Part shown: piece by piece, positions 313 through 42,624 of the stretch
Layout of the letters: each line of letters begins with the position of its first letter
Position numbering within the stretch: the stretch's first letter is position 1
Assembly: GCF_027056685.1 (NCBI RefSeq)
Contig: NZ_JALUKE010000007.1
Span: forward strand, 1 to 43,499
Length of the DNA stretch: 43,499 nt
Direction of reading: 5' to 3'
DNA from: Sulfurimonas sp.
Lineage (GTDB): Bacteria > Campylobacterota > Campylobacteria > Campylobacterales > Sulfurimonadaceae
The notes under the pieces: generated by a model
Told to the model about the DNA's origin: nothing
The model's database searches: none
Seen by the model: the letters and a program-made list of their open reading frames with translations, nothing else
Program-made: the position numbers and the translations under genes

Positions 313-1523
313 TATTTAGATTTGTAGGCATTGATGCTAATGGAAAAAAGATTAAAGATAAAATAGAAGCACAATCTTTAGCTGAGGCAAAAGCAAAACT
401 CAAAGCAAAAAACATTCTGTATAAAAGTATAGATGAAGAGAGGCCCTCTTTTTTTGATAAGCTAGAGTTTAGTAGAAAGTATAAAATTTCACCACAAGAA
501 CTCTCTGTACTCTCTCGTGAACTCTCTATGTATATCCGTTCTGGTATCACCATAGTATCAGCACTTAAAGTAATAGAGTCTCATTATGAAAAAAATAAAA
601 AAATTAGACTTTTTATAACAACAGTGAGCACCTATCTTGATGAGGGAAAAGATTTTTACTCTGCACTAGAGGAACAAAATGTAGTGGAATTGCCTCTTTT
701 TTTTAAAGAGTCCATAAAAGTCAGTGAAAATGGCGGTCTTTTAGATGAAGTTTTAATGGAACTTTCACGCTTTTTAAAAGAGCAAGATAAAATAAACAAA
801 GAGATAAAGTCTGCGTTTGCTTACCCCTCATTTATGATTGTTGTCTCTCTTTTGATGATAGCATTTATGCTTACTTTTGTGGTTCCTCAAATCACAGGTA
901 TTTTTAAAAGTATGCACCAAACACTCCCTACACCTACTATTGTTGTTATTGCAATGGGTGATTTTTTTAAAAATAATTTCACTTTAATTCTTACAAGCAT
1001 ATTTGTGTTTGTAGCTGCGTTTATATTTATGGTCAAACGCAGCTATAAGTTTGCTTACCGAGTTGATAAGCTTTTACTCAAGTTACCACTCTTTGGAGGC
1101 ATAATTCAAAAGAGTGAATTGGCGCGTTTTTCATATATTGCTTCTTTGCTTACACGCTCTGGCGTTCCTTTTGTGCAAACTGTTAATTTGAGTGCAAATA
1201 TTTTAAATAATCTTGTACTTAAAGAGCTTTTTGTTGATGCCTCAAAAAAGGTAGTGGAGGGAAAACTTCTCTCAAAAGCTCTGAATGAATCTAGTACAAA
1301 GATTGATTATGCTTTTATTCAGTCTATTGCCCTTGGGGAGGAGACCTCTGAAGTTGAGAATGTTTTAACCAATGTCTCCGAACTCTATTTCGAAGAAAAT
1401 CGTGATAAAATAGCAACACTTTTAACCCTGCTTGAGCCTGCACTTATGCTTATTGTCGGTGGTAGTATTGGCTTCATCGTTGCAGCTATGCTTCTGCCTA
1501 TTTTTTCTATGAGTATCCATTAA
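309..1523 (+). CDS. gspF: Type II secretion/type IV pilus platform protein, GspF/PilC family
   Basis: 404 aa; duplicated GspF domain (RELSMYIRSGITI / SLLTRSGVPF), AFAYP and LLEPALM...LLPIF motifs, 3 TM segments. Confidence 0.93.
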   Translation: MIFRFVGIDANGKKIKDKIEAQSLAEAKAKLKAKNILYKSIDEERPSFFDKLEFSRKYKISPQELSVLSRELSMYIRSGITIVSALKVIESHYEKNKKIRLFITTVSTYLDEGKDFYSALEEQNVVELPLFFKESIKVSENGGLLDEVLMELSRFLKEQDKINKEIKSAFAYPSFMIVVSLLMIAFMLTFVVPQITGIFKSMHQTLPTPTIVVIAMGDFFKNNFTLILTSIFVFVAAFIFMVKRSYKFAYRVDKLLLKLPLFGGIIQKSELARFSYIASLLTRSGVPFVQTVNLSANILNNLVLKELFVDASKKVVEGKLLSKALNESSTKIDYAFIQSIALGEETSEVENVLTNVSELYFEENRDKIATLLTLLEPALMLIVGGSIGFIVAAMLLPIFSMSIH

Positions 1524-2437
1524 TGCAGCAGAGAAAAAAGATGAAAAATGCAATTGCATTGATGATTACGCTCTTTTTTGTGATGGCTTTGAGTATTAGT
1601 ATAGGGCTTGGGCTTAAGTATGTAAAAGAGGGTGCTCAAAGTGTAAATCAGGAGAAATTTCTTATTCAAACGCGGAGTGTCTTGGCAGACTTTTTAACAA
1701 TGTTACGCAAGACACCACAACTTACAAGTATAAACTCTGCTGATACGCTTTCACTTTTTCTCTCTGAAGCTTCACTTATTCCCCTAAGCAGTAATGATGT
1801 TAATGTTATTATAAAAATTAGTAGTGCAAGAGATAAAATAAGTCCAGAGATTTTCAATACGAAAGCAAAACGGGATGCTCTTTTAGCCTTTTTATCTACA
1901 AAAGGCGTCAATGTGGACTACCTGAATATACTAGATGATATGATGGGTGGCATAAAAGAGGATGGCTCATACAAGAGTGATATTTTCACCAATAGACCTA
2001 ATCTTTTTAGAAATTATATTGCTTCAAAAAAACAACTTGAAGTTGCAGATAGATTTTATACAGAGACATTTCATGAGCAGAGTCTTCAAAAAATTACGCC
2101 TACAAAGCTTTTTTATACAAGTGCAGAGAGTAATGCCTCAAACTATAAAATGGATTTGAACCATATTAAGCCCATAGCTTGGGAAATGATTTTAGGCTGT
2201 GATAAGCAAAGAGCGGAGACTCTGAGTGCAAACGCAGGTTATTATGCAAATACAAATGACTTGGGACTCAGTGCAGATGAAAATCTCTCTTTGATGCGAT
2301 TTCATCAAAATATTAGTTATTATGAGCCTTTTATTGCAGTTGAAATTACAATTATGAAAGATAATGAGAAAGCTCTAATAAGTTTTGAGTATAATTTAGA
2401 ATCAAAAAAGGGGTCCAATTTTGTTCTGGAAGTTTAA
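1523..2437 (+). CDS. GspK-like minor pseudopilin
   Basis: N-terminus KNAIALMITLFFVMAL is a class III-like helix lacking Glu5, typical of GspK; operon position. Confidence 0.65.
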   Translation: MQQRKKMKNAIALMITLFFVMALSISIGLGLKYVKEGAQSVNQEKFLIQTRSVLADFLTMLRKTPQLTSINSADTLSLFLSEASLIPLSSNDVNVIIKISSARDKISPEIFNTKAKRDALLAFLSTKGVNVDYLNILDDMMGGIKEDGSYKSDIFTNRPNLFRNYIASKKQLEVADRFYTETFHEQSLQKITPTKLFYTSAESNASNYKMDLNHIKPIAWEMILGCDKQRAETLSANAGYYANTNDLGLSADENLSLMRFHQNISYYEPFIAVEITIMKDNEKALISFEYNLESKKGSNFVLEV

Positions 2438-3350
2438 AAGGCAGGTCGATACAGTTTTTGTAGATACTAACTCTGCTGATTTTCATATTGAGAGTAGTGT
2501 CAATGTTATTTTATCACCCTCTTTATACTGGGTAAAAAAAGTTTCTTTACCTCTGCAATCCCTGCGTGAAGTGAAGCCGCTGTTAGAATCACTCTTTGAA
2601 GATATGCTTCCTGAGGGAAGATACAGCTATGAAGCTTATAAATTTGGTGAAGAGTATTTTATTTTTGCTTATGAAGATAAATATATTTTAGATCTGTTAG
2701 CACAAAAAGGAGTACCAGCTTCGAAAATTAATGGCGTCTATTTCGCTCAAAATGAGTTTTTACATTTAGAAGAGGCAAAAAAGATAGATGAAAGTGAAGT
2801 AATACTTGTCAAAGATGATATAGTTATTCTTTTACCTGCAAAGTTTAGCACTGCACAAAATATGCTTGATGTTACAGAGATAAAACTCTCAAAACATAGA
2901 ATAACACTCAAGCAATTTGGGCACATTCTTAATGCAAAGAGCCTCTATACTATAGTGGCACTTTTTGTAGTATTATTACTGCTTGTTGGAAGTGAGTATA
3001 TTATTACTCTCAATAAAATAGATAAACTCCAAACGCAGCGAGATAATATATTTCATAAATATGCACTCAAACCTACCATGATGCAAAACCGTTCGCTTTT
3101 AAAGGGCTATGAAGAGAGCTATAAAAGACAAATGCAGTTAAGAAAAGTTCTAGCAGTTGTGCTTGGTATGCATCTAAAATCTATGCATAAAGTGAAATTT
3201 ATTGCCTATAAAAATAGAAAAGTCACACTGCGTTATAGTGGTCTCAAAAAAGGCGATGAGGGTTATATTGAAACTTATTTCAGAGCTAAAAGTCTGAATT
3301 ATAGTGCGAAGTATAAGAACAATATCTGGTATGTGGAGGTGAAATTATGA
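2421..3350 (+). CDS. GspL-like inner-membrane assembly protein
   Basis: Cytoplasmic N-domain, single TM (about aa 175-197), periplasmic coiled region; follows the K-like gene. Confidence 0.6.
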   Translation: MFWKFKRQVDTVFVDTNSADFHIESSVNVILSPSLYWVKKVSLPLQSLREVKPLLESLFEDMLPEGRYSYEAYKFGEEYFIFAYEDKYILDLLAQKGVPASKINGVYFAQNEFLHLEEAKKIDESEVILVKDDIVILLPAKFSTAQNMLDVTEIKLSKHRITLKQFGHILNAKSLYTIVALFVVLLLLVGSEYIITLNKIDKLQTQRDNIFHKYALKPTMMQNRSLLKGYEESYKRQMQLRKVLAVVLGMHLKSMHKVKFIAYKNRKVTLRYSGLKKGDEGYIETYFRAKSLNYSAKYKNNIWYVEVKL

Positions 3351-3754
3351 ATCGTGTAAATCCTTTACACATAATTATTTTACTTATTGTTCTTTTGACT
3401 TTTGTAATGTTGAAGCTAAACGCAGCTAAAGAAGAACTTGTAGATACAAAGTCTTCTTATAATCAAACAGTTGTTTTAGCAGATAAAATAAAAGGGTTAA
3501 AATCAAGCTATTTTAATAAAACAAAAGTGCAAAGAACAATAAATAAAATATTGAGAAGTTCTACATTAAGGGCTTCAAATATTAGTAAAAAGGTGACAAA
3601 CTCCTCCATTTTACTGACATCAAAAAATATGAACATTCATTCACTAAACTTTTTGCTTGGTAAAATTTTGAATGGTAATTACATTGTCAGTGAGTTGCAA
3701 ATTAAGCAGCTAAGTGATAAAAAAGCATCTTTGCAATTGGAGATAAAATGGTAA
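3347..3754 (+). CDS. GspM-like protein
   Basis: 135 aa; N-terminal TM, coiled coil, small C-terminal domain; follows the L-like gene. Confidence 0.55.
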   Translation: MNRVNPLHIIILLIVLLTFVMLKLNAAKEELVDTKSSYNQTVVLADKIKGLKSSYFNKTKVQRTINKILRSSTLRASNISKKVTNSSILLTSKNMNIHSLNFLLGKILNGNYIVSELQIKQLSDKKASLQLEIKW

Positions 3755-4278
3755 AAATAGTAAGATTTTTTGCATATATGCTATTTTTTATTGTGGCTTT
3801 GATGTACTTTATGCCAAAAGAGAGTATCTACTTCCTTGCAGAAAAACAGTTGCAGAAGTATCATGTTGTGATTGCGCATGAAAGTGTCAAAGAGAGAGGT
3901 CTCTCTCTTGAGTTACGCCATCTTGATGTGTATGTAGAGTCAATTCAGAGTGCTAAAATAGGAGAAGTTGATATATCTCTTTTTGGTCTTTATAATGAAG
4001 TTAAGGCGAATAATATTGAACTTTCAACTGCTGTCGCTTCGATGTTACCTACAAAAATAGAGAGTGTCACTATAAAATACTCAATACTTAACCCTTTGAA
4101 TGTAACGCTAAACGCAGTGGGTGCTTTTGGAACTCTTCATGGCGAGGCAAATATAAAAGAGAGAAAAATCATAGCAGAGTTAAAGCCCTCTTCTTTGATG
4201 AAAAGAAAATATAGATCAGCTTTGCGCAATTTTAAAAAGCAAGCCAATGGGGAGTATGAATATGTCCAAAGTTTCTAA
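3748..4278 (+). CDS. GspN-like protein
   Basis: N-terminal TM ending in MP, beta-rich periplasmic part; operon position. Confidence 0.5.
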   Translation: MVKIVRFFAYMLFFIVALMYFMPKESIYFLAEKQLQKYHVVIAHESVKERGLSLELRHLDVYVESIQSAKIGEVDISLFGLYNEVKANNIELSTAVASMLPTKIESVTIKYSILNPLNVTLNAVGAFGTLHGEANIKERKIIAELKPSSLMKRKYRSALRNFKKQANGEYEYVQSF

Positions 4279-5071
4279 CTCTTATTTAAGTATATTTGTC
4301 AAACTGCTTGTTCTTTTAGCATTGGCAAAGTCTATTGCACTTGCTCTTTGGTGGTTTTTGCCAGATGATGGTGTCTCTTTAAAAGAGAATGTAAATTTTA
4401 ATCCTCCTTATCATAGGGTGACTTTTAAAAATATGCTCTTAAATGTAGGCACTTCAAACGCAGTGAAAAACTCTCAAGCACTCCAAGAGAGTAGTATTGG
4501 CATTACAAATATGATTTTAAAAGGATTGTATGGCAATAAGACAAAAGGTTTTATCATCGTAGCGCTTAAATCATCTCCTCAAAAAACTTCAATAGTAGCA
4601 GTGGGAGAGAACTATTCTGGGTATAAATTAAAATCAATACTCAAGGGTGGAGCACTCTTTACGAAAGCTGGTAAAGAGTTTGTACTGAAAATAAAAAGTC
4701 AAAAAAGCAGAACAAATACGCATTCAAGTGTTGTGAGAGTTCAAGAGAGCGAGGGTGTACATGATGTCTCTCGTCAGGATATTCGATATTATGAAAAAAA
4801 TCCTGATCAGATTTGGAAAGACATTTCTATTATGGAGAGAAAAAATGGTAATAAGATTAATGGCTTTCGAGTAACGAGAGTACGCAGAGGTTCAAAAATG
4901 GATAGTTTGGGACTCAAGCGTGGAGATGTTATAATTAGAGCAAATAATGTAGATTTAAACTCCTATAAGGCTGCGTTTGATTTATATAAAGATATTAATA
5001 AAATAGATACACTGCAACTGGTGGTGTTAAGAGATAATGAAGAGAAGGAATTGGTATATGAAATTCATTAA
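4262..5071 (+). CDS. gspC: GspC-like protein with C-terminal PDZ domain
   Basis: TM, HR-like domain (LKGLYG...VGENYSGYKL), PDZ signature GFRV...LGLKRGDVIIRAN...VLRD; ATG at 4262 has GGAG 7 nt upstream. Confidence 0.8.
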   Translation: MSKVSNSYLSIFVKLLVLLALAKSIALALWWFLPDDGVSLKENVNFNPPYHRVTFKNMLLNVGTSNAVKNSQALQESSIGITNMILKGLYGNKTKGFIIVALKSSPQKTSIVAVGENYSGYKLKSILKGGALFTKAGKEFVLKIKSQKSRTNTHSSVVRVQESEGVHDVSRQDIRYYEKNPDQIWKDISIMERKNGNKINGFRVTRVRRGSKMDSLGLKRGDVIIRANNVDLNSYKAAFDLYKDINKIDTLQLVVLRDNEEKELVYEIH

Positions 5072-6896
5072 AATAACTTTTTTGGTGCTGGCTTTGAGTA
5101 TAAGCCTTTTTGCAAGAGAACAGGTCAATGTCAGCTTTTCTAATTTAGCTGTCAATGATTTTATAAAGCTAATTTCTAAAATTACAAATAAAAATATTTT
5201 AATAAATAATAAAATAAATGGCACAGTAGATTTTGTAAGTACAAGCCCAATATATGATGATGAACTGATGGGAATTTTGATTGCTGTTTTAGAGTCAAAA
5301 GGTTATACTCTTGTACAAAATGGCTCTATTTATGAAGTTGTGCGTGCAACAGAAGCTGCAAAACATAATGTAAAAGTAATCTCAAGCTATAAAAATGCTT
5401 CAGGTTCATTGATGGTAACACAGGCAATAAGAGTACATAATGAGAATGTAGATATTGTTGCTGCAAAAATTCGCTATCTTATCTCGAAGACCGCAAAACT
5501 TATGACAATGAGAGAGAGTAATACACTTCTTATTACAGATTATCCAAAAAATATTAAGACAATTAAAGAAGTTATAAATAATCTTGAAATGCGTAAAGAA
5601 CGGGTTGTAAAGATTATTGAGCTAAAGAATACTGAAGCAAAAAAACTGCAATCACATATTAATGAAATAGCAAAGTCCATTTTTAATACTAAAGTAGTTT
5701 CACAAAATGTTAAAGTTTTATTAGATACAAATATTAATGGTTTGATCTTAATAGGGAATAAAAGAAATGTTGCTATTTTGGAAAAACTTATAAAAAAACT
5801 TGATATTGAATCGAATGTTAATAAAACTGTAAAGATATTTGAGCTAAAAAATTCTGATGCTAAAGCAGTGTTGAAAAATTTGAATGATATTGTCGCTAAA
5901 CAGGTCTTTTCAGATCCAAGTCTTAAGCCAAATCTCTCCGCAAGTGAAGAGATAAACGCAGTGATTGTTGTTGGTGATCCTACTATTATTAAAGGTATTA
6001 AACTTATTATTGATGAACTTGATAAAGAGAAGTATCAGGTCTATGTACAGGCAAGAATTATAGAAATAAATAAAGATAATGCTGTTAATTTGGGTGTGCG
6101 TTATGGTTTTGATGGTGCAGCACTGAGTGCTGAGGGACTCTACTCATTAGCTGCAAATTTTGGTGGCGCTCCTGTTCAAGGTATTGTAGGAAATGCACTA
6201 GCATCTTCTCTTGTAGGGAGTGGTGTCGCACAAGGCTTTGCACTTGGTGCGGCAGTTGATTTTCTTGAGACAAATGGTGCTTCAAAATCAATTTCAAATC
6301 CTTCTATTTTATGTGTAAACAATAAAGAATCTTCCATCTATGTAGGAAAAACTATATCGGTCTCAACAGGGACAGTTACATCAACTACAGGACTAACGGG
6401 ACTTACAAGTAGTTACAAACGAGAAGATGTTGGTTTGACACTTACTATAAAACCGCGTGTTTCATCAAATGATAAAGTGACTTTAGATGTAAGCGTTGTA
6501 TTAGAAAACATACTTGATGATGGCTCTAAAAATGTGACTGGACAGCCTGTAACATCAAAACAAGAGGTGAAAACACAGGCAATTTTACGACATGGGGAGA
6601 GCATTATTATTGGAGGGCTTGTGAAAAATTATGAGAGAGACTCTGTAAGTAAAGTCCCTCTACTTGGTGATATTCCTTTGATTGGAAGCTGGCTCTTCTC
6701 ATCAAAAGCAAAGACTAAAGAACAAGATAACCTAGTGGTTATTCTCACTCCTTATGTGATAGATAAAAGTGAAAAACTCTCTAAACTACAAAAAGATTTA
6801 GGACTTCTTGCAAAAATGCAAAAGAGTTATGATAAAGAAGTTTTTCAAGAGATAAAAAACAAAAAGTTAGAGGTAAAGTCTGATGCTAAACCTTGA
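5058..6896 (+). CDS. gspD: Type II secretion secretin GspD
   Basis: Signal peptide, N0-N3 repeats, secretin motifs QVYVQARIIE, REDVGLTLTIKP, KVPLLGDIPLIG; start at ATG 5058 after AAGGA. Confidence 0.93.
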   Translation: MKFIKITFLVLALSISLFAREQVNVSFSNLAVNDFIKLISKITNKNILINNKINGTVDFVSTSPIYDDELMGILIAVLESKGYTLVQNGSIYEVVRATEAAKHNVKVISSYKNASGSLMVTQAIRVHNENVDIVAAKIRYLISKTAKLMTMRESNTLLITDYPKNIKTIKEVINNLEMRKERVVKIIELKNTEAKKLQSHINEIAKSIFNTKVVSQNVKVLLDTNINGLILIGNKRNVAILEKLIKKLDIESNVNKTVKIFELKNSDAKAVLKNLNDIVAKQVFSDPSLKPNLSASEEINAVIVVGDPTIIKGIKLIIDELDKEKYQVYVQARIIEINKDNAVNLGVRYGFDGAALSAEGLYSLAANFGGAPVQGIVGNALASSLVGSGVAQGFALGAAVDFLETNGASKSISNPSILCVNNKESSIYVGKTISVSTGTVTSTTGLTGLTSSYKREDVGLTLTIKPRVSSNDKVTLDVSVVLENILDDGSKNVTGQPVTSKQEVKTQAILRHGESIIIGGLVKNYERDSVSKVPLLGDIPLIGSWLFSSKAKTKEQDNLVVILTPYVIDKSEKLSKLQKDLGLLAKMQKSYDKEVFQEIKNKKLEVKSDAKP

Positions 6897-8400
6897 GACT
6901 ATGCATAATCTGGATTTAGATACTTATGAACCAAAAGAGCTTCATACTGAGATAAATCTTAAAAATTACCTGCTTTTTAGTAAACTCAATGATGAAGTAA
7001 GTGCCTTTGTTTGTGAGCGATACTTGACAGAGGCCAGTAACTACTACACAAAACTTCCAAGTAAGTACCCTCTTTATATGCTTGATGAAGACTCTTACGA
7101 TAGGCTCTATAACCGCTTCTTAGAACTAAGAACAGATAAAACCATGGAGAGTATGCAAGAAGATTCTGCTGAGATGGAAGATGAAGAGGACATCTCTTTA
7201 ACAGATTTTCTGCGTACCTCTTCCGATATTTTAACGAGTGAAGAGTCTGCTCCTATTATCAAGTTTGTCAATGCTCTTTTTTATCAGGCGGTTAAGAAGC
7301 GGGCTTCTGATATTCACATAGAGGTACAAGAAAAACGGGGTGAAGTTCGTTTTCGTATTGATGGTATGCTTGTTAAAAATGCAGATTTAGATAGAAAAGT
7401 TGTTAATCTTATTGTAAGTCGTATTAAGGTTATTTCAAATCTTGATATTTCAGAGAAACGAATCCCTCAAGATGGACGAACGCAAATTAAAATAGCAGGA
7501 GAAACACTTGATATTAGGGTTTCTGTACTGCCTACTTTTTATGGTGAAAGAGTTGTTATGCGACTCTTGATGAAAAGCTCTCAAATTCCAAATATAAATG
7601 AACTCGGATTTCATCCATCTGTTATTGGTGAAATTCAAAAGCTACTGCGTTTATCACATGGTATTATTCTCGTTACTGGACCAACAGGCAGCGGAAAAAC
7701 AACCTCCTTACACTCTTTTTTAAGAGAAGTCGAAGACCCCAGTAAAAATGTCATTACCGTTGAAGATCCTGTGGAGTACAAATCAAACTCTATTTCGCAA
7801 ATTCAGGTAAATGAGAAGGCAGGGCTTACTTTTGCATCGGCTCTTCGTTCTATTTTAAGGCAAGATCCCGATGTCATTATGATAGGGGAGATTCGTGATG
7901 AAGAGACAGCAGATATTGCTGTGCGTGCAGCTTTAACTGGGCATTTAGTTTTTTCCACTCTGCATACAAATTCCGCTACAGCGACCATTGCCCGTTTAGC
8001 AGATATGGGAATAGAACCTTTTTTAATCTCCTCTTCAATTCTTGGTATTTTAGCACAACGACTTGTCCGTGTCCTTTGTAATGAGTGTAAGGAGGAGGAT
8101 ACTTTGGCTGAAGAATTTGCTAATGATTATGCCATCTCTCCAGACGCAGTAATATATAAAGCCAAAGGGTGTAAAGCGTGCAACTATACAGGATTTAAAG
8201 GAAGACGCTCTATTGGTGAGCTTGTTGTTATGAATGATAAAATTAAAAATATTTTAAAAACAACAACAGATGAGTACACCATAAAAACAGCACTCAAAGA
8301 GGATGGTCTTAAAACTCTTGCAATGCAGTTAAAAGAGATGCTTTTAGATGGTGAGACATCCTTAGATGAGGCTATTCGAATCGGTTTAGGTGATGAGTAA
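6883..8400 (+). CDS. gspE: Type II secretion ATPase, GspE/PulE family
   Basis: ASDIH, Walker A GPTGSGKT, TVEDPVE, LRQDPDVIMIGEIRD, His box TGHLVFSTLH, CxxC...CxxC zinc motif. Confidence 0.95.
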   Translation: MLNLETMHNLDLDTYEPKELHTEINLKNYLLFSKLNDEVSAFVCERYLTEASNYYTKLPSKYPLYMLDEDSYDRLYNRFLELRTDKTMESMQEDSAEMEDEEDISLTDFLRTSSDILTSEESAPIIKFVNALFYQAVKKRASDIHIEVQEKRGEVRFRIDGMLVKNADLDRKVVNLIVSRIKVISNLDISEKRIPQDGRTQIKIAGETLDIRVSVLPTFYGERVVMRLLMKSSQIPNINELGFHPSVIGEIQKLLRLSHGIILVTGPTGSGKTTSLHSFLREVEDPSKNVITVEDPVEYKSNSISQIQVNEKAGLTFASALRSILRQDPDVIMIGEIRDEETADIAVRAALTGHLVFSTLHTNSATATIARLADMGIEPFLISSSILGILAQRLVRVLCNECKEEDTLAEEFANDYAISPDAVIYKAKGCKACNYTGFKGRRSIGELVVMNDKIKNILKTTTDEYTIKTALKEDGLKTLAMQLKEMLLDGETSLDEAIRIGLGDE

Positions 8401-8818
8401 AAAGAGTTACAGGGCTGCGTTTACACTTATTGAAGTGATGATAGCTGTAATGATTATTTCCGTCGTTATTTTAGCCCTTATGCGTATGTACTCTAACGAT
8501 ACTTATCTCTTTGCATCTTACAAAAAAGAGTCTCATGTAAGTGACTATGCCTCTTTTTTAATAGCAAACAAAGATTTTGGGCTTGAAAATAAAAATATCT
8601 CTTTGTATGATTTAGTAAGTGATTTTGATATAGAAAATAGTTTAAGACGCACACTTAAAGCACAAAAGGTAGATGTGATTTATAAAGTTTTAAAAACTAT
8701 GGATTTGAGTGAAGAGTCCAATACAACTGCCCCACAAATGTCACTAGAGATAGGGCAATCAGTTGTGCGTCTTCATAAAGGTGCATCTACTGCATTACTG
8801 AGGTTACAACTACGATGA
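8393..8818 (+). CDS. Minor pseudopilin, GspI-like
   Basis: Prepilin motif AA/FTLIEVMIAV. Confidence 0.75.
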   Translation: MSKKSYRAAFTLIEVMIAVMIISVVILALMRMYSNDTYLFASYKKESHVSDYASFLIANKDFGLENKNISLYDLVSDFDIENSLRRTLKAQKVDVIYKVLKTMDLSEESNTTAPQMSLEIGQSVVRLHKGASTALLRLQLR

Positions 8819-17617: not shown

Positions 17618-17621
17618 GATT

Positions 17622-32164: not shown

Positions 32165-32174
32165 CTATTTTCCT

Positions 32175-35100
32175 TTATATAAATTTTTCAATAACTAAAC
32201 GCAGTAAGTCTTTATTTACTATATTGCGTATGCTTTCATGCACATAAGCTATATCTTCACCACTGTTGTCATCGTTATTCATTAAAACAAGGTATGTTGG
32301 TAAATTACTCTTTTGACTTGCTGATTTAACAAGTTTTGAAAATGCTTCAATATTTAGATTTTGTAACTCTTTGTCAAAAAGAATAACTCTGTAATTGTTG
32401 TCTGCAATCATACTTTCTAATTCTGCAGTAGTGTTAGCAACATCATAGCTATAGCCGAGTGAGTCTAAAACTTTTTGAAAGAGTTTTGTTTCAAAAAGAC
32501 TTTTCTTAGCAAGGATTATATCTGCTTTGTACTCCTGTTTTTGTCTCTGCTGAGGTATCTGTTCTTCTTCCTCTACCTCCGCTTCTTCTACCTCTAGTAA
32601 TGCTTCTTCCTCTACTATCTCTTGTTCTTCTCCTGCAGCTTCTGTTTTCTCTACTTTTACTTCTTTTTCTGTTACTGCTTCTTCTACCTCTTCTACTTCT
32701 GCTACTTCTGCTACTGCTGTTTCAGGCTCAATTTTAATTTCTGGTTCTTCTCTCACATCTATGATTTTATCAGATAAAAATTGTGTCAATAGCAGTACGA
32801 TCTCAGAACGCACAAGTGGTTTTGTGGTGTATTCATCAAGACCAGCTTCTATAAATCTTTCCCTATCGCCTTTAAGGGCATTTGCTGTTAGTGCAATAAT
32901 AGGAACATGAATCCTATGGTAATCCTCTTCAAACTCTAAAATCTCTTTTGTCGCTTCAATACCGTCAAGGAATGGCATTTGAATATCCATAAATATAAGA
33001 TCAAAATCACCATCTTTACGCTTTTGGAAAGCTTCAAGTCCATTGGATGCAATACTAACTGTAAGACCTAAATCTTCAAGTGTTCTTTTTATCAATTTTT
33101 GATTGATAATATTGTCCTCAGCAACTAAAACTTTTGCATTAAATTTTGCAGATTCCATATCAATAGTTGTTGGAATTTTTCTCTCTTGTGTTACAGCTGT
33201 AAAATTCTCGCTTTGGTAACTTTCAAGTGCACTTTTTAATTTTGTATTGTTGAGTGGTTCATAGAGTGTTTTAAATATTTCAATACCGAAACTCTCAATA
33301 GTTTTCATATAAAACGACTTTGTGATTAAAATTAGTTTCTGGCGAAGAGATGCATACTCTTTAAGCTCTTTTTCACTACAGTGTTCATAATCAATAAAAA
33401 GTAAATCATAGTTAATCTGTTTTTGCAGGTTCTCTAGTTCAGCTAAATCTTTGTACTTTGTATAGCTTACACCATAAAAATCAAGATACTCTAAGAGGTA
33501 ACTATCTTGTCTTTTTGTTTTATGTTCTGATTCTAAAACAAGGGCATTAATGCTTGAATAAGCCCCTTGAAGAGTCTCCCCTTTTGTCTTAATCTCTTCA
33601 AAATCAATTGTAAAGAAGAAAGTTGTTCCTTCTCCTGGTTCACTTTGTAAATCAAGTTGTCCACCCATAAGCTCAATAAATCTAGCAGAAATGGTAAGCC
33701 CTAAACCAGTACCACCATATTTACGCGTAATGGAAGTATCTGCTTGTGAAAAGGCTTCAAATATTTTTGATTTTTGCTCACTTGTAACACCAATACCGCT
33801 ATCTTGCACTTCAAATCTAACTCTTGTAATCCCCTCTTGCACTGAAGTCTGTTTTCTAATATCGACATTAATCATTCCAGAACTATTTGTGAATTTAACT
33901 GCATTTGAAAGAAGATTTATAAGCACCTCTTTAATCTTTGTTGGATCACCTTTAAGTGCTTGCTCAAGTTCTGGGTCTATAAAACAGCTTAAGTCAATCT
34001 GTTTTTCACTAGCACGAACAGAGTAGACTTCAACAGCACTTTCAAACTCTTCTATAGGATTAAAAATAATATCTTCAATCTCTAGTTTATTACTCTCAAT
34101 TTTTGAAAGGTCAAGAATATTATTGATGATTTCCAAAAGATTTTCAGAACTTTTTTCAATAATTTCAACAAATTCAGCTTGCTCTTCTTGAAGACCTGTA
34201 TCTTTCAAAAGTTCAGTAAATCCAACAATACCATTAAGTGGTGTTCGTATCTCATGTGACATATTTGCCAAAAACATTGATTTTGCTTCACTCGCTTCTT
34301 GCGCACTTTCTTTATCAAGCCGTGTTTGCTCAATAATATGTTCAAGTAGATTATAGGCTTCTTCTGTACCTTTTGCAGTGTGAAGATTTATTTCTCTTTT
34401 TTGAGAAGTGTCATTTGTGTCATCAGCAACTCTTTTTAAAACATTTTCTAGGTTAAGAATATTTCTAGCTATTTCATTAGAAAGTAAAAATCCAAAAATT
34501 GCTAAAATGACTGAAATAAGCCAAATTGTAAAGGTAATTGCGAGAAGTTGCAGAGCATCTGTTTTAATGGTGATAGCTCTTGTATCCATTGTTTCAAGGA
34601 GTATCTCTTCTGCGTTAGAAATCATATTTATTTTTTCAGAAAGCATAGCAAACCAAACACCTGCGTTTGTATCATATTTCCCTTGCGCAGCTTCAACTAA
34701 AATTGCAGCTCTTTGGCTATTTATATCTTCAAACAACTCCGTTGCATCTTCATTTTTAAAGATATTATTGAGCTTTGATACTAACATTTTATTTTTTAAA
34801 GTATCATAGTCTAAAGCATCTGCTTTTGCAATGAGTGAAATCCATTTATTAATTGATTCTTCATTTAAAGGGGTTGATTTAGCAATAGTATATGAAAGAT
34901 AGTCTCTCTCTTGTGCAGTATATTCACTTGCTCGAACAAATTCTATATATTTGTTTGTGTATTCATTAATTTTTGCATCGAGTTGTTCATTCGTAATTTT
35001 TTCAAGTTCCTTAATTGCAATATTTTGGGCTTTGGCATATACATTTTGATAAACATCTTCAAAACTTATTTTATGCTCATCTACTAATAGACGAGATTGT

Positions 35101-35438: not shown

Positions 35439-35440
35439 TG

Positions 35441-36949: not shown

Positions 36950-36952
36950 TCC

Positions 36953-37366: not shown

Positions 37367-37435
37367 AAAAAAACCTTATAATTGCTTGAACTATTAATCT
37401 ATCACAAATATATCATAAAGGGATAAAAAAAAAAC

Positions 37436-39238
37436 TTATTTATAAATATTTTTGATGGTTTTTGCATCTTTTGTATTTAAAAGTGAAGAAATATCATCTT
37501 GGGTAACATTTTTGAGTGCTTCAAAAGTCCCAAAATGGTTTAAAAGTTTTTGTACTTTTGCTGGTGAAATTCCATTTAGGTTAAGCAGTTTACTCTCTTG
37601 GTCGAGTTTGAGCTTGGTTTTTTTATGAAAAGTGATGGCTGCTCTATGTGATTCATCTCGTAAATTTTGAACAAATTGTAATCTTTTGTCGCTATTTTTT
37701 AGCCGAAAAGCTTCCTCTTTTGTGTAGATAATATCATTTGCTTTTCCTTTGGCACGATGTGCCTTTGCATCAACTTTTTCTTTAGAAATAGCAATTACAT
37801 CTAAAAAAACGCCATTTGATTCTAAAATTTCTAAAGCAAGCTTAAGAAGCGTTGCGCCACCATCGAGTATCCATAAATCTGGTGGAGAATTTTTAGCAAA
37901 ACTTGCAACGCGCCGAGAGAGCGTTTCTCGCATCTGTGCATATTCATCTTTTGCGTTTAGATGATAAGTTCTGTAAGATTTCTTATCAAATCTGCCATTT
38001 TCATAGACAATCATAGCGCCTACAGTAGCTACTCCTGCCATATGTGAATTGTCAAAGGTCTCAATTCTTAGAGGAACTCTTTCTAGTTTGCATAAATCTT
38101 GAATGTCTTCTAAAATTTCAGTGTTAGATATATTTGTTTCTCTTGAGAGTAACTCTGCTGCGTTTAGTTTTGCAAGAGTAATTAAATCTTTTTTCTTGCC
38201 TCTTTGTGGTACAGATATAGAGGCTTTTTTTTCAAATATTTTGCTTAAATGTGCTTCTATAAGTGCCAAGTCATCAAACATATCAGCAACTAAAATAGGT
38301 GCAACAATAGGGGGCTTTTCATCTTTGTAAAAATCAATCAAGGCACGAGAATAGGCCTCATTTATATTAAATTCTTCATTTATGTTTATATAATTATGGG
38401 TAGAGGATATAATTTTACCGTGACGCATAAATATACGAACAACGACGGCACGCTTAGGGGAGTGCTCTATGACAAAAATATCATAATTTTCATCTGTTGC
38501 AAAATCTATGTCACTTTTAATCTCTGAACGCTCAATCCTCTCTATTCTATCGCGCAGTTCACCTGCCTCCTCAAAACGCAACTCCTGGGCATAAAAGTTC
38601 ATTCTCTCTTTGAGCTTTTTTGTTAAAAATGTTTTGTTTTTAATGAGTTTTGTAGCTAAATCAATCTCTTTTTGATAACGCTCTTTTGAAACTGGAAGTT
38701 CACATGGACCTAAACATTTCTCTATTTGATAGTATAAACAGAGTTTTTTTGATTTAAGAGAACCCTTTTTTTGAACAAGCTTACAGATTTCATAGATAGA
38801 GTTTAAAATATCTCTTGCACCAACAGAATAGGGACCAAAGTAGGTAATGTCTTTACTCTTTATAATTTTTCTTGTTATTTCAAAACGGGGATACTCCTGA
38901 GAGTTGTCAATATAAATATAGGGGTAGGTTTTATCATCTCTTAAAAGTATATTGTACTTTGGATTGAGTTGCTTGATAAGAGAGTTTTCAAGAATGAGTG
39001 CATCATGTTCGGAGTTTACGACGATGTAATTCATGGAAACTGTCTGCTCTATCATCTTTTTTATTCGCACAGAAAGGTTTGTATTTGCTCCTAATTTTGG
39101 TGTAAATTTCCAGTAACTTTTTACTCTGTTGGCAAGATTTTTTGCCTTGCCAACATATAAAAGGTGACCATTCTTATCGAAGTATTGGTAAATTCCCGCA
39201 GAAGAGGGGAGCTGTTTAATCGTCTCTAACAGTTGCAT
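37436..39238 (-). CDS. uvrC: Excinuclease ABC subunit C
   Basis: GIY-YIG (GIYQY...YVGKAKNL), [36 protein letters not shown], HhH. Confidence 0.97.
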
Positions 39239-39830: not shown

Positions 39831-41278
39831 TAAGATATGATGTAATAATAATAGGAGCAGGCGTAGCAGGACTTTATGCTGCTATGAATTTGCCAAAAGA
39901 TAAAAAAATCCTGCTTATTAATAAGCGTGAAACTTTCAAATGCAATACCTTTTATGCACAAGGTGGTGTAGCTCTTGCTCGCGATAAAGCAGATATACCT
40001 TTTCATATAAAAGATACACTTGAAGCAGGTGCAGGCTTATGCGACACGGATGCTGTAAATGTTTTGAGTGAAAATTCACGCAAGGCTATTGATGATTTAA
40101 TAGCACACGGATTTGAATTTGACAGAGATGAAAATGATAAACTTCTCTATACTAAAGAAGCCGCACACTCATGTGAGCGTATTTTGCATGCTGGTGGTGA
40201 TGCAACTGGAAGATATTTACACTACTTTTTGCTGCAACAAAACAGACATGCTATGCTTGGTGATGCAAGAGTTGTTGATTTACTCATTAAAGATGGAGAG
40301 TGTTATGGTGTTACTCTGCTTGAACATAGAGAGAGACGAAATATTTATGCTAAAAATGTCATTATAGCGAGTGGTGGTGTTGGCTCCCTTTTTGAGTACC
40401 ATACCAATGCACCCTGCATTAGTGCAGATATGCAAGGACTTTGTGTGATGAAAGGCATAGCACTCGATAGAATGGAGATGCTGCAATTTCATCCAACTGT
40501 CTTTGTAAACTCTACAAATGCACAAAAGATGCTGCTTACAGAAGCACTTCGTGGTGAGGGTGCAACAATGGAAGATGAAAATGGTAGAAGATTTTTATTT
40601 GATTATGATGAGAGAGGAGAGCTTGCTTCTCGTGATATTGTCTCAAAAGCGATGTATCACTACTCAAGAAAAACAGGATTGAAAATATACTTGAATTTTG
40701 AAAATTTTGATGAAGAGTATTTTGCACACCGTTTTCCAAATATCTATAAAAACTTACGAAGCTTAGGCTACAAAGTACCACAACAGCGAGTGCCAATTTC
40801 TCCTGCGTTTCACTATGCCATTGGTGGTATAAAAACAGATTTGGATGCAAAAGTGCCAAGTGTAAAAAATTTGTATGCTGTTGGTGAAGTTGCATCTACA
40901 AGAGTGCATGGTGCAAATCGTCTTGCTTCCAACTCTTTGCTTGAGGGAATGGTTTTTGCAAAAAGAGCGACTGATGATATTATGAAACATATTGATGAGC
41001 CAAAAGAAGATATGCATTTCAAGCTTGAAGATGAGGTCATGAGTCTTAAAAATGACAAGAACATAAAAAATCAGCTGCGTCATATAATGTGGGAGAATGT
41101 TTCTATAGTGAGGACAAAACGAGGATTAAATGATGCTTTAGAGACAATTAATGCTCTTTTAAATGAAAATATTGGTAAACTACTCAAATTTCGTTTACTA
41201 ACTGCAAAAGAGATAGTAACATCGGCACTTAAACGCAGTGAATCTATAGGGGTTCACACAATACAAGAGGAGAAATAA
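39827..41278 (+). CDS. nadB: L-aspartate oxidase
   Basis: GAGVAGL, AQGG, EAAHS..RILH.GGD.TG, QFHPT, EALRGEG, ELASRDIV, HGANRLASNSLLE. Confidence 0.95.
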   Translation: MIRYDVIIIGAGVAGLYAAMNLPKDKKILLINKRETFKCNTFYAQGGVALARDKADIPFHIKDTLEAGAGLCDTDAVNVLSENSRKAIDDLIAHGFEFDRDENDKLLYTKEAAHSCERILHAGGDATGRYLHYFLLQQNRHAMLGDARVVDLLIKDGECYGVTLLEHRERRNIYAKNVIIASGGVGSLFEYHTNAPCISADMQGLCVMKGIALDRMEMLQFHPTVFVNSTNAQKMLLTEALRGEGATMEDENGRRFLFDYDERGELASRDIVSKAMYHYSRKTGLKIYLNFENFDEEYFAHRFPNIYKNLRSLGYKVPQQRVPISPAFHYAIGGIKTDLDAKVPSVKNLYAVGEVASTRVHGANRLASNSLLEGMVFAKRATDDIMKHIDEPKEDMHFKLEDEVMSLKNDKNIKNQLRHIMWENVSIVRTKRGLNDALETINALLNENIGKLLKFRLLTAKEIVTSALKRSESIGVHTIQEEK

Positions 41279-42585
41279 TGGAACACGAAGCAATTAATCT
41301 TGCAACAACATGGGTAGGATGGCTAAGTTTAGCAGTCTTTGTTATAGCGTACTATTTTATAGCTACAGAGGAGAAGTATGAGATAAATAAGGCAAAACCA
41401 TCACTTTTTGCTGGGACATTTATGTTTATGCTTATTGGGATTTACTATGCTATAAACGGGCTTGATCCAATGCCTTTACATAAAGAACTTGAGAGATTGA
41501 TTTTAGAGATTTCTGAAATATTCTTCTTCCTTTTAGTGGCTATGACTTTCATCGAAACACTGCTTGAGCGTGGTGTGTTTGATTTAATGAAGTATAAACT
41601 TGTCTCAAAGGGTTATACATATAAAAAACTTTTTTGGCTAACAGGTCTTTTAGCATTCTTTATTTCTCCTGTTGCAGACAACTTAACAACAGCACTTATT
41701 CTCTCTACTGTACTTTTTACAATAGATAAGAAAAATATTTCATTTTTAGTTCCAGGGGCTATAAATATTGTTGTTGCTGCAAATGCAGGTGGTGCATGGT
41801 CTCCATTTGGAGATATTACAACACTAATGTCTTGGACTGCAGAAAAAGGTCAATTTGTAGATTTTCTTTATCTTTTTCCAGCTTCAGTAATAGGGTGGGG
41901 TGTAACAGCATTTTTGCTAAGTCTTTCTCTTCCTTCTGGTCAGCCTCCCTTTGATGCTTCAACTGAGAAAAAACCTGTTGTTTTAGACGGTGGTATTACT
42001 GTTGCATATTTAGGTGTGCTTACTATTGTTATTGCAGTTTTAGGACATACATTCTTCCATTTTCCAGCAATGTGGGGTATGATGTTTGGACTTGCAATTT
42101 TAAAACTCTATTCATTCCAATTAAAAAGAAAAGGTGCAAATACATTCAATATTTATGTAAATATGGAAAAAGTGGAAAATGATACACTTCTTTTCTTCTT
42201 TGGTATTCTCTCGGCAGTTGGAGCATTACACTTTTTAGGATTTTTAGAGTATGTACATGATGTTTACGCGATGGCAGGGGCAACAGCTTCAAATATTGGT
42301 GTAGGTTTCCTATCTGCAGTGATTGATAATGTTCCTGTTATGAGTGCTATTTTGAAATCATCTCCATCTATGGATACAGACCAGTGGATGCTTGTAACAA
42401 TGACAGCAGGTATTGGCGGCAGTCTAATCAGTTTTGGTTCCGCTGCAGGTGTGGGTGTTATGGGTAAAATGCGTGGTGTTTATACTTTTGGTTCACATAT
42501 GAAACACTCATGGACAGTTTTGGCTGGCTACTTCGTTTCAATTGCTATTTGGTATGTTCAATTTGAAATTTTAGGACTTTACTAA
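41278..42585 (+). CDS. nhaD: Na+/H+ antiporter NhaD
   Basis: ISPVADNLTTAL, AANAGGAWSPFGDITT, SAVIDNVP, GGSLISFGSAAGV; many TMs. Confidence 0.9.
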   Translation: MEHEAINLATTWVGWLSLAVFVIAYYFIATEEKYEINKAKPSLFAGTFMFMLIGIYYAINGLDPMPLHKELERLILEISEIFFFLLVAMTFIETLLERGVFDLMKYKLVSKGYTYKKLFWLTGLLAFFISPVADNLTTALILSTVLFTIDKKNISFLVPGAINIVVAANAGGAWSPFGDITTLMSWTAEKGQFVDFLYLFPASVIGWGVTAFLLSLSLPSGQPPFDASTEKKPVVLDGGITVAYLGVLTIVIAVLGHTFFHFPAMWGMMFGLAILKLYSFQLKRKGANTFNIYVNMEKVENDTLLFFFGILSAVGALHFLGFLEYVHDVYAMAGATASNIGVGFLSAVIDNVPVMSAILKSSPSMDTDQWMLVTMTAGIGGSLISFGSAAGVGVMGKMRGVYTFGSHMKHSWTVLAGYFVSIAIWYVQFEILGLY

Positions 42586-42597
42586 ACTTTTTAACTC

Positions 42598-42624
42598 TTA
42601 AACGCAGTAAATGGCTGCGTTTAA
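42598..42624. terminator. Hairpin after nhaD built from two inverted copies of AAACGCAG
   Basis: TTAAACGCAG-taaatgg-CTGCGTTTAA, 12 nt after the nhaD stop. Confidence 0.65.

What the first reader, a model, noticed from the sequence alone, without database searches (positions are those of the whole stretch)
811..42622. Candidate new DNA uptake sequence YAAACGCAGY at about 1 copy per kb
SEEN: AAACGCAG starts at 1035, 2230, 3031, 3418, 4110, 4456, 5954, 15446, 16336, 16845, 17290, 17819, 20163, 20205, 20694, 22738, 23457, 24083, 25570, 29478, 32197, 41231, 42600. Its reverse complement CTGCGTTT starts at 811, 1015, 4971, 7645, 8415, 9197, 9932, 10743, 13388, 13598, 18022, 20110, 22931, 24645, 25155, 34661, 38158, 40803, 42615. 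That is 42 by eye, possibly more. A rough zero-order estimate assuming about 33% GC gives roughly 1 expected copy on both strands. The base before the core is C/T in 41 of 42 copies and never A despite the A-rich DNA; the base after is C/T in 35 of 42. The motif lies in five reading frames (NA, AF, LRL, KRS, QTQ), often through GC-ending codons (AAC, GCG), so one peptide or codon bias does not explain it. Orientation is balanced (23:19). KNOWN: Neisseria DUS (GCCGTCTGAA) and Pasteurellaceae USS (AAGTGCGGT) occur at about 1 per kb, are non-polar, sit mostly in genes and form inverted-pair terminators; C. jejuni instead selects DNA through methylated RAATTY. INFERENCE: this lineage may have its own sequence-specific uptake system; I know of no description of it. 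A nucleoid-protein or methylase site is the alternative.
Basis: partly seen in the sequence, partly recalled or inferred. Interest (0 to 1): 0.92.

Follow-up and report, generated by a model that had tools for sequence, protein, structure and literature searches.

The report
Swappable genome-wide DNA words in Sulfurimonas
This sulfur bacterium writes one short DNA word about every 1.4 kb through its genes against its own codon habits, while close relatives write different words in the same way, which likely makes it a tag for taking up own-kind DNA like those of Neisseria and Haemophilus, although no uptake test has been done.

Summary
Observation confirmed exactly: 23 + 19 cores in the window, about 0.9 expected. 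Genome-wide, AAACGCAG is the commonest 8-mer (1481 copies in 2.01 Mb; consensus Y-AAACGCAG-Y). It is 12-fold over a synonymous-codon shuffle, lies in all six frames and is not strand-polar. Most one-mismatch variants are depleted. Among 150 other Sulfurimonas-genus genomes, 9 carry over 400 copies. 26 others carry a palindrome, TACATGTA, instead, and others carry further words; the two main words never co-occur. RecG and AddB trees show the words changed between lineages at least twice. No DNA methyltransferase was found in this assembly, and none is shared by motif-rich relatives. ComEC, DprA and type IV pilus genes are present. An orphan FimT-like pilin is the best receptor candidate, but its support is weak: parsimony is no better than the species tree, and a prediction failed in 4 of 4 genomes. 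Best reading: a new uptake-sequence-like system with exchangeable specificity (0.55). Main rival: an intracellular, HIP1-like reader. Function is untested. Ten literature searches found no description. The scan's earlier notes report similar words in other phyla, not this one.

The parts
811..42622 (.). Dispersed word Y-AAACGCAG-Y, 42 cores (23 on +, 19 on -), 0.97 per kb; local sample of a genome-wide set of 1481
811..818 (-). core, antisense in GspF-like ORF 309-1523 (SAF)
1015..1022 (-). core, antisense in ORF 309-1523 (AAF)
1035..1042 (+). core, sense in ORF 309-1523 (KRS)
2230..2237 (+). core, sense in ORF 1523-2437 (ANAG)
3031..3038 (+). core, sense in ORF 2421-3350 (QTQ)
3418..3425 (+). 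core, sense in ORF 3347-3754 (LNAA)
4110..4117 (+). core, sense in ORF 3748-4278 (LNAV)
4456..4463 (+). core, sense in ORF 4247-5071 (SNAV)
4971..4978 (-). core, antisense in ORF 4247-5071 (AAF)
5954..5961 (+). core, sense in gspD 5037-6896 (INAV)
7645..7652 (-). core, antisense in GspE-like ORF 6883-8400 (LRL)
8415..8422 (-). core, antisense in ORF 8390-8818 (AAF)
9197..9204 (-). core, antisense in ORF 8815-9342 (AAF)
9932..9939 (-). core, sense in ORF 9339-10106 (INAA)
10743..10750 (-). core, sense in ORF 10405-11352 (LNAV)
13388..13395 (-). core, sense in ORF 12894-13673 (LNAA)
13598..13605 (-). core, sense in ORF 12894-13673 (INAA)
15446..15453 (+). core, sense in U32-peptidase-family ORF 14451-15743 (VNAA)
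16336..16343 (+). core, sense in DUF3972 ORF 16286-16759 (INAV)
16845..16852 (+). core, sense in ORF 16760-17617 (QTQ)
17290..17297 (+). core, sense in ORF 16760-17617 (PNAA)
17819..17826 (+). core, sense in ORF 17610-18419 (LNAA)
18022..18029 (-). core, antisense in ORF 17610-18419 (AAF)
20110..20117 (-). core, antisense in recG 19705-21498 (LRL)
20163..20170 (+). core, sense in recG (LNAA)
20205..20212 (+). core, sense in recG (PNAE)
20694..20701 (+). core, sense in recG (PNAA)
22738..22745 (+). core, antisense in pilin-like ORF 22557-23477 (LRL)
22931..22938 (-). core, sense in ORF 22557-23477 (TNAG)
23457..23464 (+). core, antisense in ORF 22557-23477 (AAF)
24083..24090 (+). core, antisense in pilin-like ORF 23477-24103 (SAF)
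24645..24652 (-). core, sense in 1443-aa ORF 24097-28428 (SNAA)
25155..25162 (-). core, sense in ORF 24097-28428 (LNAV)
25570..25577 (+). core, antisense in ORF 24097-28428 (AAF)
29478..29485 (+). core, sense in ORF 29362-31779 (INAA)
32197..32204 (+). core, antisense in ORF 32175-35438 (LRL)
34661..34668 (-). core, sense in ORF 32175-35438 (TNAG)
38158..38165 (-). core, sense in uvrC 37436-39238 (LNAA)
40803..40810 (-). core, antisense in nadB 39818-41278 (PAF)
41231..41238 (+). core, sense in nadB (KRS)
42598..42624 (+). Intergenic inverted pair of cores (42600 on +, 42615 on -) forming an 11-bp hairpin just after the nhaD stop codon; predicted terminator-like use
   Evidence: -14.1 kcal/mol, z -6.1, 0 of 200 shuffles fold as well
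22099..28428 (-). Context only: cluster of two N-methyl-Phe pilin-like ORFs, a 160-aa ORF that I read as PilX-like, and a 1443-aa DUF6701-like protein, probably a pilus tip complex; tested as receptor candidates, and their trees do not follow the word

Best explanation
The word Y-AAACGCAG-Y is written about 1,500 times through this genome on both strands and in all six reading frames, and is likely a DNA uptake tag: a surface pilin of the competence pilus would bind it, so that DNA from kin is taken up and recombined preferentially. Biased uptake plus recombination would turn near-matches into perfect copies wherever the protein tolerates it (molecular drive), and least in highly expressed genes. 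Other lineages of the genus carry other words (TACATGTA, CTCACGCA, AAACGCCA, CCACATGCC, CGCACGTAAC, CAGATGC). The specificity factor has therefore likely been exchanged or changed several times, each time rewriting the genome. Shown: enrichment, non-polarity, codon independence, site retention and turnover, mutual exclusion of the words, presence of competence genes, and lateral origin of the FimT-like pilin in one lineage that changed its word. Inferred: binding, uptake bias, and the identity of the receptor (best candidate: the orphan FimT-like pilin, G000 C150:292-939).
For: Enrichment: top 8-mer of the genome, 1481 vs 61 (Markov-2); 1409 vs 119 +- 11 under synonymous shuffling, in all six frames; QTQ, LNA, NAA and AAF are four of the five most over-represented tripeptides, and TAF is ninth. 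Sharpness: 17 of 24 one-mismatch variants are below their shuffle expectation; only AAACGCAA is clearly raised, 3.65x. This resembles the steep perfect-to-single-mismatch drop described for DUES (PMC1939737, passages). Non-polarity: 395:430; both strands all round the near-closed chromosome of G012, 65:50 if the replichores split at mid-contig (p=0.19). Expression gradient: density falls from 1.59 to 0.30 per kb across codon-based expression bins, and is 0.16 per kb in the top 60 genes. Site retention: G000 sites are kept in orthologs of seven motif-rich relatives in 35 of 93 cases vs about 17 expected from CpG-matched 8-mers (19 of 72 vs 6.9 without G073, p 1e-4), but in only 1 of 131 in five TACATGTA genomes; G141 has 28 sites that G000 lacks. 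Competence genes: ComEC without stops, DprA, a PilB-like/secretin/PilC-like operon on C132 and two PilT-sized ATPases, 11 N-methyl pilin matches. One of these pilins lies directly before an ORF I read as priA, the position of C. jejuni Cj0683, which is needed to start DNA uptake (PMC10046745, passages). Candidate receptor: the orphan pilin folds like FimU/FimT (pLDDT 89.7; FimU Z 11.2, rmsd 3.0, 119 aligned; Legionella FimT Z 7.0, rmsd 3.2, 111 aligned). FimT is the class of the predicted USS receptor PpdA/ComN (PMC12616744, passages). Its tree holds 16 of 17 ACGC-word genomes in one clade of 19 (SH-aLRT 96) and rejects vertical descent for the TACATGTA lineage G128/G016/G061 (p-AU 8e-6), which groups with TACATGTA genome G075. 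It is the only one of 7 proteins compared for which G000 is closer to both G141 and G022 than to G128 while G128 is closer to G075 than G141 is. No methyltransferase was found to explain the word.
Against: No uptake or binding data exist, and my search found no paper on natural competence in Sulfurimonas. ComEC occurs in 88 of 89 good genomes of the genus, with or without a known word. Only 4 intergenic inverted pairs exist among 1481 sites and 95% of sites are in ORFs, whereas about half of DUES are reported in predicted terminators (10.1101/2025.10.24.684340, abstract). There are no conserved distal flanks as in USS. The words of the genus are not dialects around one obvious core, and one is a palindrome, which is HIP1-like. 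The FimT-like tree needs 8 label changes vs 7 on RecG (three states, 38 genomes) and 4 vs 5 (two states). The G141/G022 placement is not significant (p-AU 0.15), the AU groups were named after I had seen the trees, and TACATGTA genomes carry several unrelated FimT types. Four genomes predicted from the FimT clade to have an ACGC word (G068, G007, G123, G081) did not (ratios 0.9-1.25). The Cj0683-position pilin groups 6 motif-rich genomes, but G073 and G141 have other types. A short ComEA was not found in G000 or G073, although C. coli and C. lari are competent without one.
Confidence: 0.55

Rival explanations
1. A HIP1-like word read inside the cell. A cytoplasmic sequence-specific DNA-binding, repair or recombination protein (unknown) favours or restores the word, for example by biased repair or gene conversion after uptake, or through selection for chromosome-organising sites. 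Lineages swap that protein.
For: The sister word TACATGTA is an 8-bp palindrome at 0.1-0.5 per kb, like cyanobacterial HIPs, where other HIPs replace HIP1 in some lineages (PMC4390886, passages). Terminator use is scarce. No pilin tracks the words cleanly. HIP1 raises transformation in a homology- and methylation-dependent way (PMC13756078, passages; 10.1101/2024.09.10.611283, search listing), so a post-uptake step could give the same genomic print.
Against: The word here is not palindromic. Spacing within genes is random, not periodic. There is no large gap at the one parS-like site found (cores 2.1 kb and 2.9 kb away). AddB follows the species tree, not the word. No candidate cytoplasmic reader was identified, but whole proteomes of relatives could not be screened.
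Confidence: 0.27
2. A methylation mark. An orphan or type IIG/III methyltransferase modifies the word, and methylated DNA is favoured at uptake (as RAATTY in C. jejuni) or in repair; swapping methyltransferases swaps the word.
For: In this phylum, uptake in C. jejuni depends on methylated RAATTY (PMC10046745, passages). Methyltransferase specificities change quickly between strains (general knowledge). G000 is only 92% complete, and defence islands are often missing from metagenome bins (general knowledge).
Against: No PF01555, PF00145, PF02384 or PF02086 match in G000, and no catalytic-motif candidate. The methyltransferases of G073, G141 and G132 are at most 34% identical to each other and have no hit in G000. 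For TACATGTA, closed genome G016 has no C5 enzyme and closed genome G128 has no PF01555 or PF02086 match. An 8-10-bp asymmetric site is longer than typical methyltransferase sites (recalled).
Confidence: 0.1
3. A Chi- or KOPS-like directional signal for AddAB or FtsK.
For: Asymmetric 8-mer, abundant, and dense in the addB locus (8 cores in 3.7 kb).
Against: No strand polarity (395:430; 65:50 in G012). The sister word is a palindrome and cannot give direction. The AddB tree follows species, and a TACATGTA clade is rejected on it (p-AU 3e-4).
Confidence: 0.03
4. Codon or peptide bias, a mobile repeat, or an assembly artefact.
For: Two frames (NA and AF) hold 70% of coding sites.
Against: 12-fold excess with proteins and gene codon usage fixed, present in all frames. 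Flanks beyond about 2 bp are unrelated. The same word is at 400-1100 copies in 9 independently assembled genomes.
Confidence: 0.01

Closest known systems
DNA uptake enhancing sequences: DUS of Neisseriaceae (receptor ComP) and USS of Pasteurellaceae (predicted receptor PpdA/ComN, FimT class)
   Same: Short asymmetric word, hundreds to thousands of copies, both strands, inside genes in several frames, sharp fall-off at one mismatch, lineage-specific variants, occasional inverted-pair hairpins, and type IV pilus competence genes with a FimT-class orphan pilin.
   Different: Unrelated sequence and a different phylum; 95% coding with few terminator pairs; no distal flanks; sister lineages use unrelated words, one of them a palindrome, and the words change between lineages within one genus; uptake untested; no ComP-family match among the 13 proteins scanned.
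HIP1 (GCGATCGC) and alternative HIPs of cyanobacteria
   Same: Genome-wide iterated octamer in coding DNA, replaced by other words in some lineages; the sister word TACATGTA is a palindromic octamer at similar density.
   Different: AAACGCAG is not palindromic; no associated methyltransferase was found; spacing is random within genes.
Methylation-dependent uptake of RAATTY in Campylobacter jejuni (Cts type II/IV machinery, Cj0683)
   Same: Same phylum and apparently the same machinery, including a pilin directly before an ORF read as priA.
   Different: Longer, asymmetric word; no methyltransferase found; not enriched in any of 193 other-genus genomes sampled across the phylum.
Chi (RecBCD/AddAB) and KOPS (FtsK)
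   Same: Abundant asymmetric octamer.
   Different: Not polar; AddB does not track the word.

Membership tests
DUES (DUS/USS) | 9-10-nt word in hundreds to thousands of copies, over-represented under Markov and codon-aware nulls | tested here: met
   1481 cores vs 61 (Markov-2); 1409 vs 119 +- 11 (synonymous shuffle)
DUES (DUS/USS) | Asymmetric and not polarised with replication | tested here: met
   395:430, p=0.24; G012 65:50, p=0.19
DUES (DUS/USS) | Steep drop from perfect to singly mismatched copies | tested here: met
   perfect 11.7x; 17 of 24 single-mismatch variants below 1x, one at 3.65x
DUES (DUS/USS) | Sites kept above background in orthologs, with gain and loss by point change | tested here: met
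   35 of 93 kept vs about 17 expected; 28 new sites in G141; only sampled loci, not whole genomes
DUES (DUS/USS) | Frequent use as inverted-repeat terminators (secondary feature) | tested here: not met
   4 intergenic inverted pairs, 8 of 1481 sites; one folds as a strong hairpin
DUES (DUS/USS) | Type IV pilus competence machinery in the same genome | tested here: met
   ComEC, DprA, ATPase/secretin/PilC-like operon and PilT-sized ATPases, pilins; short ComEA not found
DUES (DUS/USS) | A minor pilin (ComP or PpdA/ComN type) that reads the word and co-varies with it | tested here: inconclusive
   FimT-class fold; partial tree match, parsimony no better than RecG, one prediction set failed
DUES (DUS/USS) | Preferential uptake of DNA that carries the word | not testable with these tools
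   needs an uptake or transformation assay
HIP1-type highly iterated palindrome | Palindromic word | tested here: not met
   AAACGCAG is asymmetric; only the sister word TACATGTA is palindromic
HIP1-type highly iterated palindrome | Orphan methyltransferase whose site lies in the word | tested here: inconclusive
   none found in G000 (92% complete) and none shared by G073, G141, G132; methylome not available
HIP1-type highly iterated palindrome | Quasi-periodic spacing | tested here: not met
   within-gene spacing matches random placement in 8 of 9 distance bins; long-range periodicity not tested (fragmented assembly)
C. jejuni methylation-dependent uptake (RAATTY/CtsM) | Word methylated by a conserved orphan methyltransferase | tested here: inconclusive
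   no enzyme found; methylation itself not testable
Chi / KOPS | Strong orientation bias with the replichore | tested here: not met
Integron attC core (GTTRRRY, consensus recalled) | Word matches the recombination core | tested here: not met
   0 of 1481 sites match

The most novel reading that the evidence does not exclude
Sulfurimonas has a sequence-specific DNA uptake system independent of Neisseriaceae and Pasteurellaceae, whose specificity is a swappable module. Lateral exchange of a FimT-like tip pilin, encoded between aclA and an rRNA operon, changes the word read (AAACGCAG, TACATGTA, CCACATGCC and others), the genome is rewritten with the new word, and a new barrier to gene flow arises inside one genus.
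Probability: 0.3. Interest if true: 0.92.

Novelty: new variant of a known kind. Interest (0 to 1): 0.74.

Why it matters
Sequence-tag DNA uptake is described for only two bacterial families, each with one conserved core. Here one genus shows half a dozen unrelated genome-wide words that exclude each other, change between close lineages, and apparently decay (G029 has lost most sites). Whatever reads them, this is a natural series in which to test how such words arise and spread (molecular drive versus selection) and whether they build species boundaries. It also offers a practical lead for getting DNA into Sulfurimonas and related sulfur bacteria.

Tried and rejected
Methyltransferase cause: four Pfam families, a motif scan and cross-comparison found none in G000 and none shared. 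Chi/KOPS: no polarity, and AddB follows species. Even spacing or a gap at the parS-like site: not seen. Integron core: no match. Receptor candidates that do not follow the word: PilX-, PilW- and PilV-like proteins and the 1443-aa protein of the window; the Cj0683-position pilin, which groups 6 motif-rich genomes but not G073 or G141, and whose fold search gave only Z under 5. The FimT-like gene could not be checked in G073, G029 or G013 (aclA is cut at a contig end) or in G137 and G077 (aclA not assembled). The FimT-based prediction failed in 4 of 4 genomes. A wider FimT tree with 39 of the 80 loci gave no clean link to TACATGTA. The candidate AAGCAGTGA in G128 was mostly local; its genome-wide word is TACATGTA. 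Sequencing runs: no RNA holder was listed, and laying four related runs gave a cut list of differences that could not test polymorphism at the sites. Foldseek against PDB gave no match at E <= 0.001 for the FimT-like model (best FimU, 1.2e-2). PMC3993363 was not held. Depletion in prophages or islands was not tested properly, because no annotation of accessory DNA was at hand.

Full report
Observation. The 42 coordinates are exact: 23 AAACGCAG and 19 CTGCGTTT, with a pyrimidine before the core in 41 of 42 and after it in 35 of 42, against 0.90 expected. 40 copies lie in ORFs in five frames. Two form an inverted pair 14 bases after the nhaD stop that folds as an 11-bp hairpin (-14.1 kcal/mol, z -6.1). 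The window is contig C7 of genome G000 (2,013,410 bases, 252 contigs, 91.95% complete). Its closest named relatives by a pilin search are Sulfurimonas and related Campylobacterota records, and the four runs holding most of the window are hydrothermal vent metagenomes of one study.

Genome-wide statistics. AAACGCAG is the commonest 8-mer of G000: 1481 copies (0.74 per kb) against 61 under a second-order and 354 under a fourth-order Markov model. In 1474 copies with full flanks, position -1 is T 57% / C 34% and position +1 is C 47% / T 34%; beyond about two bases there is only codon periodicity, so no distal flank as in USS. 127 of 130 contigs of 5 kb or more carry it. With my own ORF caller (2119 ORFs, 94% coding), 1412 sites are coding, 63 intergenic and 6 on a boundary. 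In genes, 1409 are seen against 119 +- 11 when synonymous codons are shuffled within each gene, and every frame is in excess (553 vs 61, 431 vs 27, 155 vs 4, 130 vs 9, 129 vs 17, 11 vs 0.6). QTQ, LNA, NAA and AAF are four of the five most over-represented tripeptides, so the word has also changed proteins. 17 of the 24 one-mismatch variants are below expectation; only AAACGCAA (3.65x) is clearly raised. Orientation is 395:430 on G-rich versus C-rich strands of skewed contigs (p=0.24). Spacing inside genes matches random placement, except a slight excess at 30-60 bases (57 vs 43 +- 6). Density falls from 1.59 to 0.30 per kb across eight bins of a codon-based expression score with motif codons masked, and is 0.16 per kb in the top 60 genes, mostly ribosomal-type by their N-termini. 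Only 4 intergenic inverted pairs exist.

Distribution. Among 150 other genomes of the genus, YAAACGCAGY has over 400 copies in 9, 80-330 in 14, 37-66 in 8 and under 30 in the other 119; the reversed-word control is 0-33 in all but one. The 9-mer YAAACGCAG does not exceed 84 copies in any of 193 other-genus genomes of the phylum, or 63 in any of 159 other-genus genomes of the family. De novo word counts in 20-100 kb samples of about 50 relatives showed that many motif-poor genomes carry other words. Against synonymous shuffles these hold: TACATGTA (16-24 vs 2-4 in four genomes), CTCACGCA (19 and 23 vs under 2), AAACGCCA (21 vs 1.6), CACATGCC (9 vs 1.4, with flanks making about TTCCACATGCCA), CACGTAAC (8 vs 0.9), CAGATGC (48 vs 18) and GAGATCGA (10 vs 2.3). 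TACATGTA has 100-850 copies in 26 of the 150 genomes, none of them among the 23 with 80 or more YAAACGCAGY. A degenerate ACGC pattern is at least 1.75x its control in 38 of 150, again with no overlap. Kin are not independent, so I give no p-value. TACATGTA also reaches 648-1520 copies in 4 of 5 genomes of a genus in another family, and 608 in the one sampled genome of another genus of this family.

History. RecG and AddB trees agree on two points. The TACATGTA genomes G128, G016, G061 and G044 fall in one well-supported clade with the AAACGCAG-rich G000, G073, G015, G137 and G132. The AAACGCAG-rich pair G141/G022 sits with G121, G086, G035, G085, G075 and G043, which carry other words. The word has therefore changed at least twice; the trees are quick and midpoint-rooted, so direction is not shown. 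In codon-aligned orthologs from the fetched loci only, G000 sites are kept in 35 of 93 cases in seven motif-rich relatives (about 17 expected from CpG-matched 8-mers; 19 of 72 vs 6.9 without G073), and in 1 of 131 in five TACATGTA genomes. G141 has 28 sites that G000 lacks. G029, 88% identical in these genes, keeps 5 of 22 sites and has no new ones, against 16 of 21 in G073 (Fisher p 7e-4). No replacement word appeared in 57 kb of G029. This looks like decay after loss of the driving process, although G029 keeps ComEC and DprA matches.

What could read it. No DNA methyltransferase of four Pfam families, and no catalytic-motif candidate, was found in G000. The enzymes of G073, G141 and G132 are at most 34% identical to each other and absent from G000. 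Closed TACATGTA genomes also share no obvious enzyme, though G016 was searched for the C5 family only. AddB follows species. Competence genes are present: ComEC without stops, DprA, an ATPase/secretin/PilC-like operon on C132 and two PilT-sized ATPases (names inferred from BLAST to the window's type II secretion proteins), and 11 N-methyl pilin matches. A short ComEA was not found in G000 or G073. ComEC is in 88 of 89 good genomes, so presence does not discriminate.

Two pilins are candidates. The first lies directly before an ORF I read as priA, as does C. jejuni Cj0683, whose loss nearly abolishes initiation of uptake (PMC10046745, passages). Six motif-rich genomes form a clade on its tree, but G073 and G141 have other types. 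The second is an orphan 215-aa pilin between an ORF I read as aclA and an rRNA operon, with a FimU/GspH/FimT fold; PpdA/ComN, the predicted USS receptor, is placed in that class (PMC12616744, passages). On 38 genomes that had both genes, its tree holds 16 of 17 ACGC-word genomes in a clade of 19, and rejects keeping G128/G016/G061 with G000/G015/G132 (p-AU 8e-6), while RecG rejects their grouping with G075. Against it: parsimony is 8 vs 7 changes (three states) and 4 vs 5 (two states) compared with RecG; the G141/G022 move is not significant (p-AU 0.15); the groups were named after the trees were seen; TACATGTA genomes have several types; and four genomes predicted to carry an ACGC word did not. 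It is a lead, not a finding.

Mechanism and rivals. I commit to an uptake tag spread by biased uptake and recombination (0.55). An asymmetric, non-polar, sharply defined, codon-independent word that is kept and regained site by site, in a genome with competence pili and no matching methylase, is the known print of DUS/USS (10.1101/2025.10.24.684340, first of five parts read; PMC1939737, passages). A HIP1-like intracellular reader is the main rival (0.27), helped by the palindromic sister word and the scarcity of terminator pairs (PMC4390886 and PMC13756078, passages). A methylation mark as in C. jejuni gets 0.10, Chi/KOPS 0.03 and codon bias or artefact 0.01. It works like a DUES in its statistics. 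Membership is not shown: the defining uptake test is missing, one secondary feature is not met, and the sequence is unrelated.

Novelty. Searches for uptake sequences with Campylobacterota, Sulfurimonas or Epsilonproteobacteria gave 0 papers. The word itself gave 3,060 papers; the 30 listed looked unrelated by title and abstract. TACATGTA with genome terms gave 3 unrelated papers. Sulfurospirillum with palindrome terms gave general and cyanobacterial papers (15 of 62 listed). Sulfurimonas with natural competence gave 1 unrelated paper. The library lacks most subscription papers, and I read no supplements, where large k-mer surveys could list these words. The scan's own notes hold nothing on this genome and report similar uptake-like words in other phyla, which I did not check. 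Verdict: a real, strong and apparently undescribed genome-wide word system, a new variant of a known kind, with an unproven function.

Noticed in passing
G128, G016, G075, G085 and 22 other genomes of the genus; G217, G291, G307, G278, G299 outside it: The palindrome TACATGTA (TTACATGTAA in G128/G016) is iterated at 100-1520 copies per genome and never together with AAACGCAG; a HIP-like word in two families of Campylobacterota.
   Followed up: partly
G121 (L061, L210, L211), G019, G143, G010/G033/G144, G069, G086/G035/G096/G082, G039, G037: Further lineage-specific iterated words: about TTCCACATGCCA, CGCACGTAAC, CTCACGCA, AAACGCCA, CAGATGC, GAGATCGA and AAACGTG. Several share an A-C-R-Y-R kernel, which may be chance.
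   Followed up: partly
L126:292-939 (G000 C150) and orthologs: The orphan FimT-like pilin gene sits between an aclA-like gene and an rRNA operon in the complete genomes checked, so metagenome assemblies often break right after it.
   Followed up: yes
G029 (L056, L217, L218, L219): A close relative of G000 (88% nucleotide identity in genes) has about a quarter of the word count, keeps 5 of 22 sites, gains none, and has extra pilin genes (15 N-methyl matches vs 11); cause unknown.
   Followed up: partly
window:22099-28428 (-): Pilin-like ORFs plus a 1443-aa DUF6701-like protein next to recG; the large protein is only about 51% identical in G073, whose RecG is 95% identical, so it varies fast.
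   Followed up: partly
window:309-9342 (+): Type II secretion cluster (GspF-like, GspD, GspE-like, two pseudopilins), separate from the pilus operon on contig C132.
   Followed up: no
L374-L403 (addB loci): The addB region is rich in each genome's own word (8 AAACGCAG in 3.7 kb of G000; 6 TACATGTA each in G075 and G043), which recalls the reported DUES bias to genome-maintenance genes; not tested against expression level.
   Followed up: no
G000 C132:448-10077: The type IV pilus operon itself is a 9.6-kb stretch without the word, at 31% GC.
   Followed up: no
G160: YAAACGCAG has 90 forward and 15 reverse matches, probably a local array such as a tandem repeat.
   Followed up: no
G000 C13:13456: One perfect parS-like palindrome (consensus recalled) on a contig with a gyrB-like ORF; all 10 cores on that contig lie on the minus strand.
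   Followed up: partly
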